From Escherichia coli (GTDB taxonomy: Bacteria > Pseudomonadota > Gammaproteobacteria > Enterobacterales > Enterobacteriaceae): a stretch of DNA of 64,000 bases. The position numbers were made by a program, and so were the translations under genes. The stretch is taken from assembly GCF_003334305.1 (NCBI RefSeq), contig NZ_QOWS01000024.1; one strand, given 5' to 3'. A model generated the notes under the pieces. The model saw only the letters and a program-made list of their open reading frames with translations. It had not been told where the DNA came from and did not search any database. Of this stretch, positions 6,096-61,735 are shown one piece after another (within the stretch, counting starts at the first letter, position 1; every line of letters begins with the position of its first letter).

Positions 6096-6116
6096 ATGAT
6101 AATAATTCTCATTATA
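6096..6116 (-). promoter_or_regulatory. candidate Fur box in gpmA promoter
   Basis: AATGATAATAATTCTCATTAT resembles the GATAATGATAATCATTATC Fur consensus, about 30 bp upstream of gpmA start. Confidence 0.4.
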
Positions 6117-8459: not shown

Positions 8460-9506
8460 TTACACTCCGGATTCGCGAAAATGGATATCGCTGACTGCGC
8501 GCAAACGCTCTGCTGCCTGTTCTGCGGTCAGGTCTCGCTGGGTCTCTGCCAGCATTTCATAACCAACCATAAATTTACGTACGGTGGCGGAGCGCAACAG
8601 AGGCGGATAAAAGTGCGCGTGCAGCTGCCAGTGTTGATTCTCTTCGCCATTAAATGGTGCGCCGTGCCAGCCCATAGAGTAGGGGAAGGAGCACTGGAAG
8701 AGGTTGTCATAACGACTGGTCAGCTTTTTCAACGCCAGCGCCAAATCGCTGCGCTGGGCGTCGGTCAAATCGGTGATCCGCAAAACGTGGGCTTTGGGCA
8801 GCAGTAGCGTTTCGAACGGCCAGGCAGCCCAGTAAGGCACAACGGCTAACCAGTGTTCGGTTTCGACAACGGTACGGCTACCGTCTGCCAGCTCGCGCTG
8901 AACATAATCCACCAGCATTGGTGATTTCTGTTCGGCAAAATATTCTTTTTGCAGGCGGTCTTCGCGCTCAGCTTCGTTAGGCAGGAAGCTATTTGCCCAA
9001 ATCTGTCCGTGCGGATGCGGGTTAGAGCAGCCCATCGCCGCACCTTTGTTTTCAAAGACCTGCACCCACGGGTACGTTTTTCCCAGCTCTGCGGTTTGCT
9101 CCTGCCAGGTTTTGACGATTTCCGTCAATGCCGCAACGCTCAGTTCTGGCAACGTTTTACTGTGATCCGGTGAAAAGCAGATCACCCGGCTGGTACCGCG
9201 CGCGCTCTGGCAACGCATCAAAGGATCGTTGCTTTCTGGCGCATCTGGCGTGTCAGACATCAAGGCCGCAAAGTCATTAGTGAAAACGTAAGTCCTGGTG
9301 TAATCGGGGTTTTTATCGCCTGTCACCCGCACATTACCTGCGCAGAGGAAGCAATCTGGATCGTGCGCAGGTAACACCTGTTTGGCTGGCGTTTCCTGCG
9401 CCCCCTGCCAGGGGCGCTTAGCGCGGTGCGGTGAAACCAGAATCCATTGCCCGGTGAGCGGGTTGTAGCGGCGATGTGGATGATCAACGGGATTAAATTG
9501 CGTCAT
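8460..9506 (-). CDS. galT: galactose-1-phosphate uridylyltransferase
   Basis: ORF track 348 aa, [28 protein letters not shown]. Confidence 0.95.
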
Positions 9507-10794: not shown

Positions 10795-12267
10795 TCAGTT
10801 TATTTTTGTCAGCGCATAGCGATAAAGGTCACCGTCCGACACGAACTCAAGGCGATGGGTAATACAGGCAGGCGCATCTTCAGCGTGGTGCGAAACAAAC
10901 AACAATTGCGTTTCACCTTCGCTAATCAGCACATCAACAAAACGGCGGATAAGTTGGCGATTGAGCGGATCAAGCCCCTGTAGTGGTTCATCGAGAATAA
11001 GCAACGTCGGATGTTTCACCAGTGCGCGGACGATCAGCGCCAGACGCTGCTGTCCCCAGGAAAGACTATGGAAAGGAGCGTCAGCCGTGCGTTTATCAAT
11101 GCCGAGAATATCCAGCCACTGCTGCACCAGTTTTTGCTGGCGATCCGAAACGGCCTGATAAATGCCAATCGAATCAAAATAGCCAGAAAGAATCACATTA
11201 CGCACAGTAGTACTGACCCGGTAATCCAGATGCAAACTACTGCTGACGTAACCGATATGCTTCTTGATATCCCAGATGGTTTCGCCGCTGCCACGACGTC
11301 GTCCGAAAAGCGTCAAATCGTTGCTGTAACCTTGCGGATGATCGCCAGTAATCAGGCTTAATAACGTCGATTTTCCCGCGCCATTTGGCCCGACAATTTG
11401 CCAGTGTTCACCTGGATTCACCTGCCAGCTAAGGTTATTAAGAATGGGGCGATCGTTATAAGAAACCACGCCATTGTTCAGCACAATGCGCGGTTCGTTG
11501 ACGGGTAAGGCGTGACGTGCTGAAGGTTCATCCGGCTCCGGCAGTTGCACACCTTCAAGCTGTTCGCTATGCGCCAGTTGCGCGACGAGTGCTTGCTGGA
11601 GCAGTTCCTCTTTAGCGCCCGTTTCCGCTAACGTACAATCCGCCAGCACGCCAGCAAACTGGACAAATTCCGGGATCTCATCGAAGCGATTGAGCACCAG
11701 TACCAAAGTAATACCGGACTGATGTAACGAGGCGAGTAGCTCAGCCAGCTGCTGACGTGAGGCAACATCCAGGCCATCGAACGGCTCATCAAGAATCAAC
11801 AAGTCAGGCTCCGACATCAGCGCCTGACACAGCAGGGTTTTTCGCGTCTCGCCAGTGGAAAGGTATTTAAAGCGTCGGTCGAGGAGGGCGGTAATACCGA
11901 ACTGCTGCGCCAGTTGCATGCAACGCGGTGCATCCTTTACTTCATCCTGAATAATCTCAGCCGTAGTGCGTCCGGTGTCATCTTCGCCAGGGCCGAGCAT
12001 ATCGGTGTTATTCCGCTGCCATTCGTCGCTGACGAGCTTTTGCAATTGCTCGAAGGAGAGACGAGTGATATGGGAAAACTGGCTTTGCCGTTCACCTTTC
12101 AAAAGCGGAAGTTCCCCCACCAGCGCGCGGGCCAGCGCCGATTTCCCGCTTCCATTCGAACCGACAAACGCCCAACTATCACCCGCGTTTAACGTTAGCT
12201 GAGGCAATTGCAGCGTTTTTGTGTCGCTAAGACGAAACGTGCCTTGCAAAATTTGCAACGATGACAT
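10795..12267 (-). CDS. modF: ABC-type ATPase ModF (two nucleotide-binding domains)
   Basis: ORF track 10795..12279; start trimmed to MSSLQILQGTF (490 aa); two Walker A motifs (GSNGSGKS, GPNGAGKS). Confidence 0.88.
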   Translation of the reverse strand: MSSLQILQGTFRLSDTKTLQLPQLTLNAGDSWAFVGSNGSGKSALARALVGELPLLKGERQSQFSHITRLSFEQLQKLVSDEWQRNNTDMLGPGEDDTGRTTAEIIQDEVKDAPRCMQLAQQFGITALLDRRFKYLSTGETRKTLLCQALMSEPDLLILDEPFDGLDVASRQQLAELLASLHQSGITLVLVLNRFDEIPEFVQFAGVLADCTLAETGAKEELLQQALVAQLAHSEQLEGVQLPEPDEPSARHALPVNEPRIVLNNGVVSYNDRPILNNLSWQVNPGEHWQIVGPNGAGKSTLLSLITGDHPQGYSNDLTLFGRRRGSGETIWDIKKHIGYVSSSLHLDYRVSTTVRNVILSGYFDSIGIYQAVSDRQQKLVQQWLDILGIDKRTADAPFHSLSWGQQRLALIVRALVKHPTLLILDEPLQGLDPLNRQLIRRFVDVLISEGETQLLFVSHHAEDAPACITHRLEFVSDGDLYRYALTKIN

Positions 12268-54773: not shown

Positions 54774-55915
<1,142 letters not shown>

Positions 55916-56029
55916 AAAAAGCCCGTCCAGTAACGGACGGGCAAACAAGGGTAATATAGGATCAATGAGGGTTAGAGCATATGCGTCTGTCGGCAAACAG
56001 ACAGGGAAATACTTGTGCTGGACGTAGCG

Positions 56030-56140
56030 TAAACGCCTGATCCGTCCAACGGTTCGGATTTTGTAGGCCTGATAAGACGCGGTAGCGTCGCATCAGGCAT
56101 CTGTTGCCGGATGCGGCGTAAACGCCTTATCCGTCCTACG
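56030..56140. repeat. BIME/REP array
   Basis: Three REP-like palindromes (GCCTGATAAGACGCGG..CATCAGGC; GCCGGATGCGGCGTAAACGCCTTATCCG). Confidence 0.7.
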
Positions 56141-56142
56141 AA

Positions 56143-56403
56143 TTACTTATAAATTACCGCAGTACCGCTTAATTTATTGTTGTTGGTGGCGGAAGTGATG
56201 CTGTATCCACTGGCACCGGCTGCCGCGGCTTTCTCAGCCAGTTTCGCTTCCAGGGCATCGAGGGTGGATGCGCCATCGGCAGAAACCACGCCGATTTTAT
56301 TCATGTTCTGTGCCTGGGATGCCGTTACCGGTTCCGCGGCAAACACGCCAAATGACAGAGTTGAAAGAGCCATAGCAGCAACAACAGTATTGATAGTTTT
56401 CAT
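56143..56403 (-). CDS. ybiJ: DUF1471 (YhcN-family) periplasmic protein
   Basis: ORF track 86 aa; signal peptide MKTINTVVAAMALSTLSFGVFA; paralog of mcbA. Confidence 0.88.
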   Translation of the reverse strand: MKTINTVVAAMALSTLSFGVFAAEPVTASQAQNMNKIGVVSADGASTLDALEAKLAEKAAAAGASGYSITSATNNNKLSGTAVIYK

Positions 56404-56667
56404 AATTAATCTCTCGCAGGTGATTTTTGTATAAGTGACGTTGTTTCGTCGATGTGATGAGTATCACGTTTTTTTACGAGAGATAAAATCGAAGAGAATT
56501 GACCGCCTTGTTCAAATAAATTGATTGATATCTAACCTACTGATAAACCATTTATTTGTTGTACTTATGAACTTGTTTTATACCGCGTGGCAGTCACAGC
56601 AGCGTTAAAGGCACGGAATGCCACGCAAAATACAAATTATACTCGCTATGCATCTCGCCAGTTGTAG

Positions 56668-56934
56668 TTAACGTAACTGGCTGTCTTTCGAACCTCTGCG
56701 ATTATATCCTGTATAAGCTGGTTTTTGTAAATCTTTCTCCTGCTGACAATGAATACATAAGCGCACGCCAGGAATGGCTTCCCGACGGGCCTGCGGGATG
56801 GGGGCACCGCACTCTTCACATTCATCCAGGCTTTCGCCGCGCGGAATTTCACCCCGAGCGCGGGAAATCGCATCTTCAATTGTACTGTTGATCTGTTCGT
56901 TGACGGCGTCATCGTTAGCCCAACCGGATGCCAT
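56668..56934 (-). CDS. ybiI: DksA/TraR-family C4-type zinc-finger protein
   Basis: ORF track 88 aa; CEECGAPIP...CIHCQ four-Cys zinc finger. Confidence 0.85.
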   Translation of the reverse strand: MASGWANDDAVNEQINSTIEDAISRARGEIPRGESLDECEECGAPIPQARREAIPGVRLCIHCQQEKDLQKPAYTGYNRRGSKDSQLR

Positions 56935-57007
56935 ATCGACCTCCCCATATCAATACTTGTACAGTTAAGTGTAGCTAATCCAGGGACGAACTCGGGCAGT
57001 TCAAGCA

Positions 57008-57685
57008 TCAGATCTCCGACCATTCCCGCAGCAGATTATGATAAAGATTAAGCAGCGACAGGATCTCTTCACTTTCGCCGTAGCGGCTTTTCAGCGACTG
57101 AATATTGTTGTCCAGTTCAAACAGCATGGCGCGCTTTTTATCATCGCGGATCATCGACTGGATCCACATAAATGATGCCACTCGTACGCCGCGGGTTACG
57201 GGTGTCACGCAATGCAGGCTGCTGGAGGGATACAACACGAGATCGCCTGCCGGGAGTTTTACCCGATGTTGTCCGAAGGTGTCATTAACGACCAGTTCGC
57301 CGCCGTCGTAGCTTTGTGGATCGCTTAAAAACAGCGTGGCAGAAAGGTCAGTACGCATCCAGCCGTTTTGTGGATGGCTGCGTACTGCGCCATCCACATG
57401 GAAACCATAGGTTTCATTGTTCTGATAGCGATTAAACAGCGGCGTGGAAAGGGTACGCGGCAAGGCCGCGGCAAAGAATAAAGCATGTTGGTTAACCGCG
57501 TTCAGCACCTCATTTTGCAGGGCGGCGTATAACGTGCTGCGGGTGTCGACCTGTTGATTGTTCTTAACTTGCGCACCTTGTGCGCCGGTGGTGACGCGTC
57601 CATCCACCCATTCGGCTTGTTCCAGTTGTTCGCGAAACCGGGCGACGTCCTGTGGCGATAACACGCCGGGAATGTGGTACATCAT
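57008..57685 (-). CDS. ybiX: PKHD-type Fe(II)/2-oxoglutarate-dependent hydroxylase
   Basis: ORF track 57008..57721; start trimmed to [17 protein letters not shown] (225 aa); directly downstream of fiu. Confidence 0.88.
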
Positions 57686-57726
57686 ACAAGTTCTCCAAAA
57701 AGTGGGGCCTGCGCCCCACATCTGAA

Positions 57727-60009
57727 TCAGAAATGCATATTGGCTGTGAGCAAGAAGGTTCTTGGCTCGCCCGGGTGATAACGGTAGCCGCTCTTGTTGA
57801 TTGAGGCGACGTAATCGGTATCAAACAGGTTGTAAACGTTTAGCTGGAAGTCGAGATTGCGATTAACCCGATACCCCAGTTTGGCATCGGCGACCCAGTA
57901 ACCTTCGGTAAACGCTGGCGTTCCCACCGCGCCGTCTGAACCTTTATGCATACTGCCGATATAGCGTGCGCCCGCGCCAACAGAGATATCATCGGTTGCC
58001 TGATACTGGCTCCATAAGGTGAAGGCGTGCTCCGGGGTATACGGCAGCGATGAGGAACCATCCTGGGCAACATCTTTGCCGTTTTTGATGGTTGCTTTTT
58101 GCTGGGTATAGCCGCCAATCACCTGCCACGCGGGAGTGATATTCCCGGCCACGGATATCTCATAGCCTTCGACACGTTTCTTACCGTATTGCGAGTAAGT
58201 TCCGTCATCATTTTGCTCAACTTCATTTTCGATATCAGTACGGAATAGCGCGGCGGTGAGCAACAGGCGTTTATCCAGAACCTGCCATTTGGTGCCAATC
58301 TCGCTGGTGTTGGCTTTTTGCGGTTTAAAATCGGTGCGGTTGGCACTGTTACCGCTGCCAGACTGCGCAAGGGCGAAGTTGTTGCCGCCCGGAGGCTGCT
58401 GGGAAACGGCATAGTTAATATAGACATTACCGTTTTCCGTCAGGTGATACAGCGCCCCGGCTTTCCAGTTCACCAGATTGCCCGACTTGGCGGTGTCGAC
58501 GGTGGTGACCGGAGAACCTTTTGCCACACCAGTTGGGCAGGTGATGGCACCGCGTCCGCTGCCGCCGCAGGCGGTGGCACTGTCATATTCAGTATGATAA
58601 TTATCCAGACGGATCCCGCCGTTCAGCTCAAAATCACGGGTGATTTGCAGCGTATCGAAGGCGTAAATTGCGAAGGTATCCGTCTGACCATTGGCGTTTG
58701 CGCCGTTGCGCGTCAGGCCGCCGGGATGAATGCTGCTGTCAGGATGATAAATATTTACCGCGGGTAACGTCACCGGATTAACGCCGTAGTTAGTCTGCGT
58801 TTCACGGGTAAATTCCACGCCGGTACTGACATCATGACCGATAGAACCGGTATAGAACGTCGAGGTCAGGTTGGTCTGGTTGGTGAGAATTTTATTACTC
58901 ACATCTTTGGTATTCGCCGTGCGTGACCAGGTCCAGCTATTCACATCGCTGGTGGGCTGAGTAATATTCGACGCCCCGCCCATAATCGCCGTCATCAGGT
59001 AATCCTGCTTTACGCGCGACCAACGGGTAGTATTGCGAATGGTGGTGTTATCGTTGATGTCGTGCTCAAAACGCATGGTGGCGGTGTCGGTGGTCGAATC
59101 GTCGTAATCGGAATCCGTGCCGTAAAAGTTATGAGTATCAACTTTTCCGGAATGATTCAGAGCCGCTGTTCCCGCAGATGGGGCAGAATAACCCGGCAAA
59201 CCGATGGTCGGAATGCCGCCGTCTGGCGTGTTGTGCTGGGTGACATGCAGATAATTAAGATACAAACGATTCGCTGTACCAAGGCCAAAAGCGATAGAAG
59301 GGGCGACGCCGTAACGCTCATTTTTGACTTTGTCGCGTCCGGCATCGTGCGTTTTTTCGCCCATCACATTCAGGCGCACCGCAGTGGTATCACCAATGAC
59401 CTGATTGACGTCCAGCGTGCCGCGGCGGAACCAGGCGCTGCCAATACTGGCGGAGGCGTCAATGCCGGAATCATTGCGCGGCTGCTTGCTGATCATATTG
59501 ATCGAGCCCGTCGGCGCGCTGCGCCCGTAGTCGGTGCCGGAAGGCCCTTTAATCACTTCGACCTGCTCAGTATTGAAGGTGTCGCGCGAGACGCTGCCGA
59601 TATCGCGAATGCCATCAATATAAATACTGTTAGAGGTATCAGCACCGCGCATATAAATGGCGTCGCCAGTGGTGGAGTTACCGTTCTCACCCGCAAAAAA
59701 CGCACCCACGCCGGGGACGTTTTTGAGCGCGTCGGTAAGGTTGGTTGCGCCCTGATCTTTAATCACTTGTTCAGAAATCACCGTCATCGTGCGGGTAGTA
59801 TCCGCTACCGGACGCGAGAATTTCGGATCGGCAGATTGTTGTGGCGCATAAAGCGAAGGCGTTGATGCTTCGACAACCAGCGTGTCATCCGCGTTAGTTT
59901 GCCCTTCGGCGGCGAGTGCCTGAGCCACAGGCGTGATGCCAATACAAAGACCGGCAAAGAACGTGAGCGAATGAAATTGTCTGGCAGGGAAATTGCGATT
60001 GTTTTCCAT
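57727..60009 (-). CDS. fiu: TonB-dependent outer-membrane catecholate siderophore receptor
   Basis: ORF track 760 aa; signal peptide, TonB-box region (DTLVVEAS), C-terminal aromatic residue (..ANMHF). Confidence 0.93.
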
Positions 60010-60112
60010 TTTGCAGGTGACTTTTTTTATATGTTGAAATTTTCACTGCCACGAGAAAGCCTCTCTGCGGATGCGATGCCACTGTTAATCTCGTGATAGT
60101 GTTCGTGCAAGT

Positions 60113-60137
60113 GATAATAATTTTGATAAGCATTATC
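60113..60137 (-). promoter_or_regulatory. Fur box in fiu promoter
   Basis: GATAATAATTTTGATAAGCATTATC (GATAAT/ATTATC repeats) about 110 bp upstream of fiu start. Confidence 0.55.
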
Positions 60138-60272
60138 ACTTGGCGCGATTTTCTATCACCCATTGCGCGAAAAAGAAATACATTTATTTACATTGCGTTC
60201 ATATTTGATGTTTTTTGATTACAAAACAGGCGAAAACTGCATCCAGAGGCGAATGCAGTTACGTTGGTGGGG

Positions 60273-60533
60273 TTATTTGTAGATGGTTGCAGTACCGAAC
60301 ATCTGGTCATTTCCGCCTGCGGAATTAATGACATAACCTTTCGCGCCTTGCTCGCGCGCTTTTTCTGCCAGTTTATCCTCCAGATCGCTTAGGTTTGATG
60401 CGCCAGTTGCCGAAACGGTACCGGCGGGCCGTAGCTGACCGCTGTCCAGGTTACTCATCGGTTGCGCGGCATAAGCCGTGAGAGAGATTCCGCTCAGGAC
60501 GGTGGCAATCAGTAGTGTGAGGCACTTTTTCAT
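60273..60533 (-). CDS. mcbA: DUF1471 (YhcN-family) periplasmic protein McbA
   Basis: ORF track 60273..60677; start trimmed to MKKCLTLLIATVLSGISLTAYA (signal peptide), 86 aa; C-terminus ..GTATIYK like YbiJ ..GTAVIYK. Confidence 0.85.
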   Translation of the reverse strand: MKKCLTLLIATVLSGISLTAYAAQPMSNLDSGQLRPAGTVSATGASNLSDLEDKLAEKAREQGAKGYVINSAGGNDQMFGTATIYK

Positions 60534-60808
60534 AATGACATCCTCATAAATACAACGGGTAGTGCCTGATAAGTGTAGGTCGCCTGGGCGATGAAAATGA
60601 CGCAAAAAATTGACAGAGATGTGCTTATTTTTTGAACGATATATTTTTACAAAATAAGACAAATCAATGACATGCATAATGCTGATTTTTATGATGAATT
60701 GCCATAAACCATAGCCATGTTAAGGTTTTGGGGAATGATAAACGCAGCCAGATATTTACCCTGTCGCGTTATGCGGGTATCTTACGCCGCTGCTTAAAGG
60801 AGAATGCT

Positions 60809-61735
60809 ATGTCCGCCCAGAAACCGGGGTTGCATCCGCGCAACCGTCATCACAGCCGCTACGATCTCGCCACGCTTTGTCAGGTCAATCCTGAACTCAG
60901 GCAATTCCTCACGCTTACACCCGCCGGGGAGCAAAGCGTAGACTTTGCCAATCCGCTGGCGGTGAAGGCGCTCAATAAGGCGTTGCTGGCCCATTTTTAC
61001 GCCGTAGCGAACTGGGAAATCCCCGACGGTTTTCTCTGCCCACCAGTACCGGGCCGGGCGGATTATATTCATCACCTTGCCGATTTACTGGCTGAAGCAA
61101 GCGGAACAATTCCAGCGAATGCCAGCATTCTGGATATCGGCGTTGGTGCGAACTGTATTTATCCGCTGATTGGCGTACATGAATATGGCTGGCGTTTTAC
61201 CGGTAGTGAAACCAGCAGCCAGGCGTTAAGCAGTGCGCAGGCGATTATCAGTGCTAATCCGGGGCTTAACCGCGCCATTCGTCTGCGTCGGCAAAAAGAG
61301 AGTGGGGCAATTTTTAACGGCATCATCCATAAAAACGAGCAATACGACGCGACCTTGTGTAACCCGCCATTCCACGATTCCGCCGCTGCAGCGCGGGCAG
61401 GTAGTGAGCGTAAACGCCGTAACCTGGGGCTGAACAAAGACGATGCACTGAACTTTGGTGGTCAGCAACAGGAGTTGTGGTGTGAAGGTGGTGAAGTCGC
61501 CTTTATCAAAAAGATGATTGAAGAGAGCAAAGGCTTCGCGAAGCAGGTGATGTGGTTTACCTCGCTGGTATCTCGTGGTGAAAACTTACCGCCGTTGTAT
61601 CGTGCTCTGACCGACGTGGGCGCGGTGAAGGTGGTAAAAAAAGAGATGGCCCAGGGGCAAAAGCAGAGTCGCTTTATTGCCTGGACCTTTATGAACGACG
61701 AGCAGCGCCGCCGTTTTGTTAATCGCCAACGTTAA
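60809..61735 (+). CDS. rlmF: 23S rRNA m6A1618 methyltransferase
   Basis: ORF track 60728..61735 (TTG); start trimmed to [20 protein letters not shown] (308 aa); NPPF motif present. Confidence 0.9.

What the first reader, a model, noticed from the sequence alone, without database searches (positions are those of the whole stretch)
56143..60533. Paralogous DUF1471 periplasmic proteins ybiJ and mcbA bracket the fiu-ybiX-ybiI iron-uptake cluster
Both are 86-aa proteins with signal peptides and share a conserved C-terminal region (..GASNLSDLEDKLAEKAREQGAKGYVINSAGG...GTATIYK versus ..GASTLDALEAKLAEKAAAAGASGYSITSATN...GTAVIYK). They lie on the same strand on either side of the Fur-regulated fiu operon, an arrangement suggesting duplication around, or insertion of, the fiu-ybiX-ybiI block.
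Basis: seen in the sequence. Interest (0 to 1): 0.3.

Follow-up and report, generated by a model that had tools for sequence, protein, structure and literature searches.

The report
Known E. coli paralogs flanking fiu
Two small secreted stress proteins of a known family (ybiJ and mcbA) do sit on either side of the E. coli fiu iron-uptake genes, but this is an old, already annotated arrangement whose only variable part is a fiu-ybiX cassette that relatives have repeatedly lost.

Summary
ybiJ (56143-56403) and mcbA (60273-60533) are 86-aa PF07338/DUF1471 proteins. They are 47% identical without gaps, lie on the same strand and flank ybiI-ybiX-fiu. All five genes are annotated in E. coli K-12 (b0802-b0806), and the paralogy is published.

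- YbiJ, McbA and the distant BhsA form an unresolved trichotomy. Bootstrap support for YbiJ+McbA is 17%, so the two are no closer to each other than to BhsA.
- Both clades span Cedecea to Escherichia in conserved positions, so the duplication predates the sampled Enterobacteriaceae. There is no sign of gene conversion, and the flanks share no similarity.
- Across 78 species the variable unit is Fur box-fiu-ybiX. ybiI stays with ybiJ.
- E. albertii and Citrobacter werkmanii carry remnants showing recent deletion of that cassette.
- Fiu divergence tracks that of neighbouring housekeeping genes.
- Fur boxes occur only upstream of fiu, never upstream of ybiJ or mcbA.

This is ordinary and already known, so interest is low.

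One by-product may be new. The rpoS-pairing core of the ybiJ 3'UTR sRNA ZbiJ is conserved in 63 of 73 species. It shares an exact 11-mer with BhsB, the 3'UTR sRNA of bhsA. mcbA lacks the motif.

The parts
56143..56403 (-). ybiJ (b0802): 86-aa DUF1471/PF07338 periplasmic protein
   Evidence: ORF; RefSeq annotation; Pfam hit. Orthologs sit in the same slot in 73 of 78 Enterobacteriaceae loci.
60273..60533 (-). mcbA (ybiM, b0806): 86-aa DUF1471/PF07338 periplasmic protein
   Evidence: ORF (the long ORF 60273-60677 contains the annotated start at 60533); annotation; Pfam hit. Orthologs lie next to rlmF in 51 of 78 loci.
56668..56934 (-). ybiI: C4 (DksA/TraR-type) zinc-finger protein. It stays linked to ybiJ and is not part of the variable cassette.
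   Evidence: Annotation. Present next to ybiJ in 68 of 78 loci regardless of fiu. Belongs to the Fur-1 iModulon in E. coli.
57008..57685 (-). ybiX: PKHD-type 2OG/Fe(II) hydroxylase, the distal gene of the variable cassette
   Evidence: Annotation. Always co-present or co-absent with fiu. The Fiu/PiuA transporter plus dioxygenase pair is reported as co-conserved across Proteobacteria.
57727..60009 (-). fiu: TonB-dependent catecholate siderophore receptor
   Evidence: Annotation. Present in 30 of 78 loci. Its divergence tracks flanking housekeeping genes (r=0.83, slope 0.99).
60112..60138 (.). Two overlapping Fur boxes in the fiu promoter (15-mer TGATAATNATTATCA; 2 and 1 mismatches), overlapping a sigma-70-like site at 60159-60132(-)
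   Evidence: A Fur box with at most 2 mismatches lies 95-122 bp upstream of fiu in 29 of 30 fiu+ loci. In the thirtieth (L080) the box is about 900 bp from the truncated fiu match. None lies upstream of ybiJ, ybiI or mcbA in fiu-less Enterobacteriaceae loci.
57024..60231 (-). Extent of the Fur box-fiu-ybiX cassette, as delimited by the E. albertii deletion. It runs from just after the mcbA terminator to 16 nt inside the 3' end of ybiX.
   Evidence: The C. werkmanii deletion has near-identical ends relative to C. braakii (L018 6253..9485). The fiu remnant in E. albertii scores 39 against a shuffled mean of 19.9 (sd 2.4).
60233..60258 (-). Terminator-like hairpin (CTGCAT...ATGCAG) plus T-run, 15 nt after the mcbA stop
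   Evidence: Sequence. An equivalent hairpin follows mcbA in the fiu-less species. Function is inferred.
60534..60660 (-). mcbA upstream region with blocks conserved across nine genera (GTTCAAAAAA, TTTTTTGCG and CTACACTTA; the last at 60570-60578)
   Evidence: Alignment. It has no similarity to the ybiJ upstream region. The promoter assignment is inferred. McbR repression of mcbA is known only from the literature cited.
55913..56009 (-). ZbiJ (asYbiE), an Hfq-associated sRNA from the ybiJ 3'UTR. It ends in the terminator at 55942-55921. Its conserved core GCTCTAACCCTCATTGATCCT lies at about 55960-55980.
   Evidence: K-12 annotation, coordinates converted. Terminator. Literature. Core conserved downstream of ybiJ in 63 of 73 loci.
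56066..56136 (-). REP/BIME element (Rfam naRNA4) inserted between the ybiJ stop and the ZbiJ core in Escherichia
   Evidence: 78.4 bits, E=3e-13. It explains the median of 11 matching places per genome. In other genera the core lies only 14-99 nt after the stop.

Best explanation
ybiJ and mcbA are two ancient members of the Enterobacterales-restricted DUF1471 (YhcN/BhsA/McbA) family of small Sec-exported envelope proteins. Their duplication predates the radiation of the sampled Enterobacteriaceae, and which paralog is closest to which cannot be resolved.

The order ybiJ-ybiI-[ybiX-fiu]-mcbA-(flavin reductase-like gene)-rlmF is ancestral or near-ancestral for the family. It is not a feature created in E. 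coli.

The only piece that behaves as a block is a self-contained, Fur-controlled cassette (Fur box/promoter-fiu-ybiX). It sits exactly between the mcbA terminator and the ybiI upstream region and has been lost many times. mcbA has also been lost repeatedly.

The genes work as separate units:
- mcbA has its own conserved upstream region and terminator. McbR repression is known from the literature.
- fiu-ybiX is Fur-repressed.
- ybiI is probably read through from fiu in E. coli (inferred).
- ybiJ has its own promoter and a 3'UTR that yields the sRNA ZbiJ.

Shown here: paralogy, family membership, synteny, deletions and Fur-box distribution. Inferred: the promoters, the read-through, and the envelope function of the two proteins.
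For: **Identity and family**
- Annotation, BLASTP and Pfam agree.
- The family is small and restricted: 430 cluster representatives among 1.84 billion proteins.

**Age of the duplication**
- YbiJ, McbA, BhsA and YhcN clades are each monophyletic in the observed NJ trees (bootstrap: McbA 76-78%, BhsA and YhcN 97-99%, YbiJ only 38-50%). The YbiJ and McbA clades hold orthologs from the same wide range of genera, in conserved positions and orientation.
- Third codon positions are 31% identical, and the flanks show no similarity.
- YbiJ-McbA identity is the same within a genome (43.6%) as between genomes (43.0%), so there is no concerted evolution.

**The cassette**
- All four combinations of ybiX-fiu presence/absence with mcbA presence/absence occur.
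- fiu and ybiX always travel together and carry the Fur box.
- E. albertii and C. werkmanii have clean deletions with remnants.
- Fiu distances correlate with flanking housekeeping distances (r=0.83, slope 0.99).
- Parsimony needs at least 6 state changes, or 12 losses under a single gain.
- The transporter-dioxygenase pair is described as co-conserved and Fur-regulated across Proteobacteria.

**Separate regulation**
- Fur boxes occur only at fiu.
- The mcbA upstream blocks are conserved.
- ybiI, ybiX and fiu are in the Fur-1 iModulon; ybiJ and mcbA are not listed there.
Against: - The species tree used for mapping is an NJ tree built from five proteins of this same locus, so the loss counts are approximate.
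- Repeated re-acquisition of the cassette by homologous recombination through the conserved flanks cannot be told apart from repeated loss for the deep events. Only two events carry remnants.
- No outgroup family (Yersiniaceae, Erwiniaceae) was sampled well enough to polarise the deepest state. The single Pantoea locus lacks ybiI, fiu and mcbA, and Fitch parsimony puts absence at the root for fiu and mcbA.
- Promoters, read-through into ybiI and protein function were not tested.
Confidence: 0.8

Rival explanations
1. An ancestral DUF1471 gene duplicated in tandem at this locus to give ybiJ and mcbA. ybiI and/or the fiu-ybiX cassette were later inserted between the copies.
For: - The two genes are on the same strand in all 47 species that have both.
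- They are directly tandem in Cedecea, 403 bp apart with no ybiI.
- Only ybiI separates them in 18 fiu-less species.
- E. coli YbiJ and McbA align without gaps.
- The family is known for adjacent pairs: yjfN-bsmA in K-12 and yhcN with a ycfR-like gene in Salmonella.
Against: - Phylogeny gives no sister signal. YbiJ+McbA has 17% bootstrap and 31-36% of quartet replicates.
- In a family-wide tree the two clades do not group together.
- BhsA is the second-best E. coli hit for all 51 McbA orthologs.
- No flank similarity remains.
- ybiJ shares a 3'UTR motif with bhsA that mcbA lacks.
- The Cedecea arrangement could equally be a secondary loss of ybiI.
Confidence: 0.3
2. mcbA descends from a bhsA-like gene, by dispersed duplication or transfer. 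It landed next to rlmF, close to the unrelated-by-descent neighbour ybiJ, so the bracketing is coincidental.
For: - The NJ topology and 53-59% of quartet bootstrap replicates favour (McbA,BhsA).
- BhsA is the second-best hit for every McbA ortholog. Citrobacter McbA is up to 51% identical to E. coli BhsA.
- Salmonella lacks mcbA, and its closest sequence to McbA is YcfR/BhsA.
Against: - Support is weak (23-27% bootstrap).
- McbA evolves about twice as fast as YbiJ: 63.5% versus 81% mean identity in the same 47 species. Long-branch effects are therefore likely.
- Mean McbA-BhsA identity (42%) is no higher than McbA-YbiJ (43-45%).
- mcbA lacks the 3'UTR motif that bhsA carries.
Confidence: 0.3
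3. This would be a recent event in the Escherichia lineage. Either ybiJ and mcbA are young duplicates (or are homogenised by gene conversion), or the fiu block was inserted between them in E. coli.
For: Only the raw appearance of two similar genes flanking an operon in one genome.
Against: - The same order occurs in Citrobacter, Leclercia, Silvania, Pseudocitrobacter and two Enterobacter-labelled species.
- The two proteins are 47% identical, and third codon positions are saturated.
- There is no excess similarity within a genome.
- Within Escherichia the difference is a deletion in E. albertii that leaves a fiu remnant.
Confidence: 0.02

Closest known systems
DUF1471 / YhcN / BhsA-McbA family (Pfam PF07338) of Enterobacteriaceae, as described by Eletsky et al. 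2014 (PMC4092069)
   Same: Both proteins are textbook members. They are ~86 aa with a signal sequence and a single C-terminal PF07338 domain, and they belong to a set of multiple paralogs per genome: ten in K-12, all located here. The paper already attributes family expansion to duplication and divergence and lists adjacent pairs. A 2025 study states outright that YbiJ is a paralog of McbA.
   Different: Nothing differs in kind. What this work adds is the synteny map across 78 species, the unresolved YbiJ/McbA/BhsA trichotomy, and the roughly two-fold faster evolution of McbA.
Adjacent DUF1471 pairs: yjfN-bsmA in E. coli, and yhcN with a ycfR-like gene in Salmonella
   Same: These are same-strand neighbouring paralogs of the same family. 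yjfN and bsmA lie 148 bp apart in K-12. The Salmonella pair is reported.
   Different: ybiJ and mcbA are separated by ybiI in almost all species, and by a further 3.2-kb cassette in E. coli. Their sister relationship is not supported. YjfN-BsmA are reciprocal best hits, whereas YbiJ and McbA are not.
Fiu/PiuA-type TonB-dependent transporter plus 2OG/Fe(II) dioxygenase gene pair (fiu-ybiX, piuA-piuC, cciT-cciO)
   Same: It is a Fur-regulated, syntenic, co-conserved two-gene unit. In these data fiu and ybiX are always gained or lost together, along with their Fur box.
   Different: ybiI is not part of the conserved pair and persists without it.
3'UTR-derived Hfq sRNAs ZbiJ (asYbiE) and BhsB
   Same: ZbiJ maps to window 55913-56009 and is a published repressor of rpoS translation. 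BhsB is the analogous 3'UTR sRNA of the paralog bhsA.
   Different: The papers found treat the two sRNAs separately; Bar et al. 2021 does not use the word 'paralog'. Here they share an exact 11-mer, TAACCCTCATT. The ZbiJ core is conserved across genera.

Membership tests
DUF1471 / YdgH-BhsA-McbA-like (PF07338) | Significant match to the Pfam domain model over the C-terminal ~55 residues | tested here: met
   YbiJ E=1.2e-17 and McbA E=3e-19. Both cover model positions 1-55 at residues 34-86.
DUF1471 / YdgH-BhsA-McbA-like (PF07338) | Small (~90 aa) single-domain protein with an N-terminal Sec signal sequence | tested here: inconclusive
   The length of 86 aa and the single domain are shown. The signal peptide was judged only by eye (MK..., hydrophobic core, VFA|A and AYA|A), because no predictor was available. 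The literature supports it.
DUF1471 / YdgH-BhsA-McbA-like (PF07338) | Restricted to Enterobacterales, with several paralogs per genome | tested here: met
   Ten paralogs were located in K-12. Only 430 cluster representatives match among 1.84 billion proteins. All syntenic loci come from Enterobacteriaceae or Pantoea.
DUF1471 / YdgH-BhsA-McbA-like (PF07338) | Alpha+beta fold of the solved members (SrfN, YahO, YdgH domains) | not tested
   Only a sequence search was run. It gave weak hits to 2noc_A (E=9e-5) and 2ma4_A (E=4e-4). No structure was predicted.
Tandem (sister) duplicates | The two genes are each other's closest relatives | tested here: not met
   E. coli bit scores are 72 (YbiJ-McbA), 74 (YbiJ-BhsA) and 70 (McbA-BhsA). 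YbiJ+McbA has 17% bootstrap support and 31-36% of quartet replicates. The alternative pairings are equally unsupported, so the node is unresolved rather than contradicted.
Tandem (sister) duplicates | Adjacent, same orientation | tested here: met
   Same strand in all 47 species that have both. Directly adjacent in Cedecea. Separated only by ybiI in 18 species.
Tandem (sister) duplicates | Residual similarity of flanking or regulatory DNA | tested here: not met
   Upstream regions z=1.3 and downstream regions z=-0.9 against shuffles. The CDS is 50% identical, with third positions at 31%.
Fur regulon (shared regulation of the two paralogs with fiu) | Fur box in the promoter region | tested here: not met
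   Within this locus, Fur boxes occur only at 60112-60138, upstream of fiu. None with at most 2 mismatches lies upstream of ybiJ or mcbA in any of the 77 Enterobacteriaceae loci. For fiu itself the feature is met.

The most novel reading that the evidence does not exclude
The ybiJ transcription unit, rather than its pairing with mcbA, may hold the interesting biology. Its 3'UTR sRNA ZbiJ has an rpoS-pairing core conserved across Enterobacteriaceae. That core shares an AACCCUCAUU element with BhsB, the 3'UTR sRNA of the paralog bhsA, and possibly with the yhcN 3'UTR.

On this reading, duplication of a DUF1471 gene also duplicated an embedded regulatory RNA. The copies then diverged in their targets (rpoS for ZbiJ; ompC and ytfK for BhsB). 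mcbA lost the element. That would make ZbiJ and BhsB a homologous sRNA pair born by gene duplication. It would also be a character linking ybiJ to bhsA rather than to its neighbour mcbA.
Probability: 0.4. Interest if true: 0.35.

Novelty: already known. Interest (0 to 1): 0.12.

Why it matters
It matters little for discovery. The genes, their family, their paralogy and the Fur control of fiu are all in the literature and in RefSeq.

The comparative result tidies the picture in four ways:
- The unit that turns over is the Fur box-fiu-ybiX cassette. This is relevant to catecholate and cefiderocol uptake, because species such as E. albertii, Salmonella and the Enterobacter cloacae complex lack it at this site.
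- ybiI belongs evolutionarily with ybiJ.
- mcbA is a fast-evolving, frequently lost paralog.
- Nothing supports treating YbiJ and McbA as a special functional pair.

The conserved ZbiJ core and its motif shared with BhsB are a small but testable lead on how 3'UTR sRNAs are inherited when genes duplicate.

Tried and rejected
- **19-bp Fur consensus.** With 3 mismatches it missed the fiu promoter and hit only window 6098-6116. The 15-mer 7-1-7 form found the sites.
- **Remnants of mcbA in 27 mcbA-less genomes.** A tblastn search found nothing convincing (best E about 0.007-0.01). The slot is usually occupied by a 204-aa flavin reductase-like gene. Loss versus never-present could therefore not be decided from remnants.
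- **Context of distant representatives.** P0176 lies in an unrelated pqq/tag context and P0197 is on a 1.3-kb contig. Neither helped polarise the origin.
- **Family-wide NJ tree** with 50%-cluster representatives. It is a star-like bush and resolves nothing deep.
- **Full-length RNA duplex folding** of ZbiJ or BhsB against the rpoS leader was uninformative, no better than shuffles. Only the core-restricted test discriminated.
- **nhmmer profile of ybiJ 3'UTRs.** It detected only the K. pneumoniae bhsA 3'UTR (E=0.0011), not the E. coli one, so sRNA homology rests mainly on the short exact motif.
- **Housekeeping.** The first 'ZbiJ' literature search matched surnames. Two scripts failed on file naming.
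- **Rejected ideas.** Gene conversion between the paralogs. An E. coli-specific insertion of fiu.

Full report
**1. What is there**

The window is E. coli chromosome. The 5.7-kb stretch around the finding is 100% identical to strain A7 and is present at >=80% coverage in 5417 of 5426 complete E. coli genomes.

RefSeq annotation, transferred to window coordinates, gives the following genes:

| Gene | Coordinates | Strand |
|---|---|---|
| hcxB | 54830-55915 | + |
| ybiJ | 56143-56403 | - |
| ybiI | 56668-56934 | - |
| ybiX | 57008-57685 | - |
| fiu | 57727-60009 | - |
| mcbA | 60273-60533 | - |
| rlmF | 60809-61735 | + |

YbiJ and McbA are both 86 aa. They are 47% identical over their full length without a gap (E=1e-22). 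Both match Pfam PF07338 over residues 34-86.

These are the K-12 genes b0802 and b0806. The family and its paralogy are described in Eletsky et al. 2014, and a 2025 study states that YbiJ is a paralog of McbA.

**2. Are they each other's closest paralogs?**

I located all ten K-12 DUF1471 genes: yahO, bhsA, ydgH, yhcN, yjfN, bsmA, yjfY, rclB, ybiJ and mcbA. I then compared them all against all.

| Pair | Bits | Identity |
|---|---|---|
| YbiJ-McbA | 72 | 47% |
| YbiJ-BhsA | 74 | 47% |
| McbA-BhsA | 70 | 43% |
| YbiJ-YhcN | 65 | 45% |

To add taxa, I anchored a search on RlmF and retrieved 80 loci, 78 of them enterobacterial.
- A family HMM found exactly one DUF1471 gene in the ybiJ slot in 73 species and one in the mcbA slot in 51.
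- These always lie on the strand opposite to rlmF, and no other family member occurs in the loci.
- Every one of the 51 McbA orthologs has BhsA, not YbiJ, as its second-best E. coli hit.

I built NJ trees from these sequences plus BhsA and YhcN homologs from a protein search.
- In the observed trees each of the four groups is monophyletic. Bootstrap support is 76-78% for McbA, 97-99% for BhsA and YhcN, and only 38-50% for YbiJ.
- YbiJ+McbA+BhsA has moderate support (52-58%).
- Inside that group there is no resolution: McbA+BhsA 23-27%, YbiJ+McbA 17%, YbiJ+BhsA 10-19%.
- A clade-level quartet bootstrap gives (McbA,BhsA) 53-59% and (YbiJ,McbA) 31-36%.
- A family-wide tree with 50%-identity cluster representatives is a star-like bush in which YbiJ and McbA do not group together.

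It is essentially met.

**3. Age of the duplication and mode of evolution**

Both clades contain orthologs from Cedecea through Escherichia in conserved positions, so the duplication predates the sampled Enterobacteriaceae.

In E. coli the two coding sequences are 50% identical, with third positions at 31%. The upstream and downstream regions share nothing above shuffled controls.

Across the 47 species that have both genes:
- YbiJ-McbA identity is the same within a genome (43.6%) as between genomes (43.0%), so there is no gene conversion.
- YbiJ orthologs average 81% identity and McbA orthologs 63.5%, so McbA evolves about twice as fast.

**4. What varies at the locus**

Gene maps of the 78 loci show four independent presence/absence elements between ybiB and rlmF:
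- hcxB
- ybiX-fiu
- mcbA
- a 204-aa flavin reductase-like gene next to rlmF

ybiJ (73 of 78) and ybiI (68 of 78) are nearly universal and adjacent to each other. All four combinations of ybiX-fiu presence/absence with mcbA presence/absence occur.

The fullest order, ybiJ-ybiI-ybiX-fiu-mcbA-flr-rlmF, is found in Pseudocitrobacter vendiensis and two Enterobacter-labelled species. Two Kluyvera species have the same order without ybiI.

fiu and ybiX are always together. A Fur box lies 95-122 bp upstream of fiu in 29 of the 30 fiu+ loci; in the thirtieth (L080, Kluyvera genomosp. 3) the box sits about 900 bp from the truncated fiu match. No fiu-less Enterobacteriaceae locus has a Fur box upstream of ybiI, ybiJ or mcbA. 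The one exception is a 2-mismatch site upstream of the ybiJ-like gene in the Pantoea outgroup.

In fiu-less genomes the mcbA-ybiI spacer is only 111-223 bp. It consists of the mcbA terminator hairpin followed by a conserved promoter-like block for ybiI. The mobile unit is therefore Fur box-fiu-ybiX, inserted between the mcbA terminator and the ybiI upstream region. ybiI is not part of it. This agrees with published evidence that Fiu/PiuA-type transporters and an adjacent 2OG/Fe(II) dioxygenase form a co-conserved, Fur-regulated pair across Proteobacteria.

In E. coli, ybiI nevertheless falls in the Fur-1 iModulon with fiu and ybiX. I attribute this to read-through, as an inference: no terminator-like site was found between ybiX and ybiI.

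**5. Direction of change**

- E. albertii lacks window 57024-60231. It retains a degenerate piece of the fiu signal-peptide coding region (score 39 against a shuffled mean of 19.9, sd 2.4).
- C. werkmanii lacks the equivalent 3.2 kb relative to C. braakii. It retains the last ~20 nt of ybiX.

Both are deletions nested inside fiu+ clades.

Fiu protein distances track those of the flanking housekeeping proteins (r=0.83, slope 0.99), which is consistent with vertical descent. On an approximate species tree, ybiX-fiu needs at least 6 state changes, or 12 losses under a single gain. mcbA needs at least 8.

For the deep events, loss cannot be separated from re-insertion by homologous recombination. 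No mcbA remnants were found in mcbA-less genomes.

**6. Verdict on the interpretation**

A local tandem origin remains possible. The arguments for it are the shared strand, the direct tandem arrangement in Cedecea, and the other adjacent pairs in this family. It has no phylogenetic support.

'Insertion of the fiu-ybiX-ybiI block' is wrong in its boundaries. Where the direction can be tested, it is wrong in direction too. There is no shared Fur regulation of the two paralogs.

**7. How it works (best account)**

The region contains four units:
- **mcbA.** It has conserved upstream blocks across nine genera and its own terminator. McbR repression is reported in the literature.
- **fiu-ybiX.** It is Fur-repressed and probably reads into ybiI.
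- **ybiI.** It has its own upstream block.
- **ybiJ.** It has a 3'UTR that yields ZbiJ.

The proteins are exported DUF1471 domains. Their molecular role is not established. Published ideas include stress protection, and OMP interaction by analogy with the RcsF fold.

**8. By-product: the ZbiJ sRNA**

K-12 annotation places the sRNA ZbiJ at window 55913-56009. It is published as asYbiE, a repressor of rpoS translation that pairs at -24..-7, and as a RIL-seq sRNA alongside BhsB from the bhsA 3'UTR.

- ZbiJ and BhsB share an exact 11-mer, TAACCCTCATT. My estimate of the chance expectation is about 0.002. The local alignment scores 25 against a shuffled mean of 14.3 (sd 2.4).
- AACCCTCATT, with at most 1 mismatch, lies 14-192 nt after the ybiJ stop in 63 of 73 species. 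It never follows mcbA (0 of 51).
- An alignment shows a conserved core plus terminator.
- In Escherichia, a REP/BIME element (Rfam naRNA4, 56066-56136) has been inserted between the stop codon and the core.
- The motif is also present after bhsA in Salmonella and Lelliottia. A one-mismatch copy directly follows the K-12 yhcN stop. The background rate is 0.03 per 300 nt.
- The ZbiJ core pairs with rpoS -25..-6 at -23 kcal/mol (0 of 500 shuffles reach this), and the consensus of other genera gives -23.2. The BhsB core does not pair better than shuffles.
- A profile of ybiJ 3'UTRs hits only the K. pneumoniae bhsA 3'UTR (E=0.0011).

This suggests, but does not prove, that the 3'UTR sRNA was duplicated along with the gene. 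If the motif is ancestral to the subgroup, its absence from mcbA is a loss and says nothing about which paralogs are closest.

**9. Scores**

The finding is real but ordinary and already known. Interest is 0.12.

Noticed in passing
window 55913-56009 (-), core about 55960-55980; L004 6304-6403; L008-L087 downstream of ybiJ: The ybiJ 3'UTR sRNA ZbiJ (asYbiE) has a core, GCTCYAACCCTCATTGAYCCT, conserved after ybiJ in 63 of 73 Enterobacteriaceae species. The core is complementary to the rpoS SD region (-23 kcal/mol). It shares an exact 11-mer with BhsB, the 3'UTR sRNA of the paralog bhsA. A 1-mismatch copy follows yhcN, and mcbA has none.
   Followed up: partly
window 56066-56136: A REP/BIME element (Rfam naRNA4, 78 bits) sits between the ybiJ stop and the ZbiJ core in Escherichia only. 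It lengthens the 3'UTR from about 50 nt to about 170 nt before the core, and it explains the ~11 matching places per E. coli genome.
   Followed up: partly
L049 9288-9902, L040 9291-9905, L071 9272-9898 and 31 other loci; absent from the window: A 204-aa flavin reductase-like gene lies immediately upstream of rlmF in 34 of 78 species, including Pantoea and Cedecea. It has been lost in Escherichia, Citrobacter, Salmonella and the Enterobacter cloacae complex. Where mcbA is absent, it occupies the place beside rlmF. It was identified by its sequence alone, since no family scan was run on it. A Flavin_Reduct Pfam hit was seen for a gene in the unrelated L089 context.
   Followed up: partly
L012 (E. 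albertii) 9330-9430 and 10900-11100: E. albertii keeps a degenerate ~70-nt remnant of the fiu signal-peptide coding region after deleting ybiX-fiu. It also shows no ybiO match, with glnQ following rlmF directly.
   Followed up: partly
window 60570-60578 (-) and 56966-56974 (-): The same 9-mer, CTACACTTA, lies upstream of both mcbA and ybiI. From my own knowledge it resembles a sigma-S-type extended -10 element. The mcbA copy is conserved across nine genera, and TATACTTA/TACACTTA variants precede ybiI in fiu-less Citrobacter. Promoter function was not tested.
   Followed up: partly
window 54830-55915 (hcxB); L008-L087: hcxB (ybiC), between ybiB and ybiJ, is present only in Escherichia, part of Citrobacter and Intestinirhabdus (17 of 78 loci). 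It is another presence/absence element in this interval.
   Followed up: no
L057 and L058 (Pseudescherichia) between ybiI and mcbA; L069 (Leclercia MAG): Pseudescherichia has a 7.6-8.2-kb insertion, and one Leclercia MAG a 1-kb insertion, at the same site where the fiu cassette sits in E. coli (between the mcbA terminator and ybiI). The Pseudescherichia insertion includes ABC-transporter ATPase-like genes, seen as weak GlnQ hits. The junction may be a recurrent integration or replacement spot.
   Followed up: no
window 6097-6116: This is the best Fur-box match in the whole window outside the fiu promoter: 1 mismatch to the 15-mer and 3 mismatches to the 19-mer. The gene context was not examined.
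   Followed up: no
E. coli strain MARGA_3, NZ_CM170101.1 3153447-3160426: One E. coli genome carries an IS621 (IS110-family) insertion within this ybiJ-mcbA interval (hit H6).
   Followed up: no
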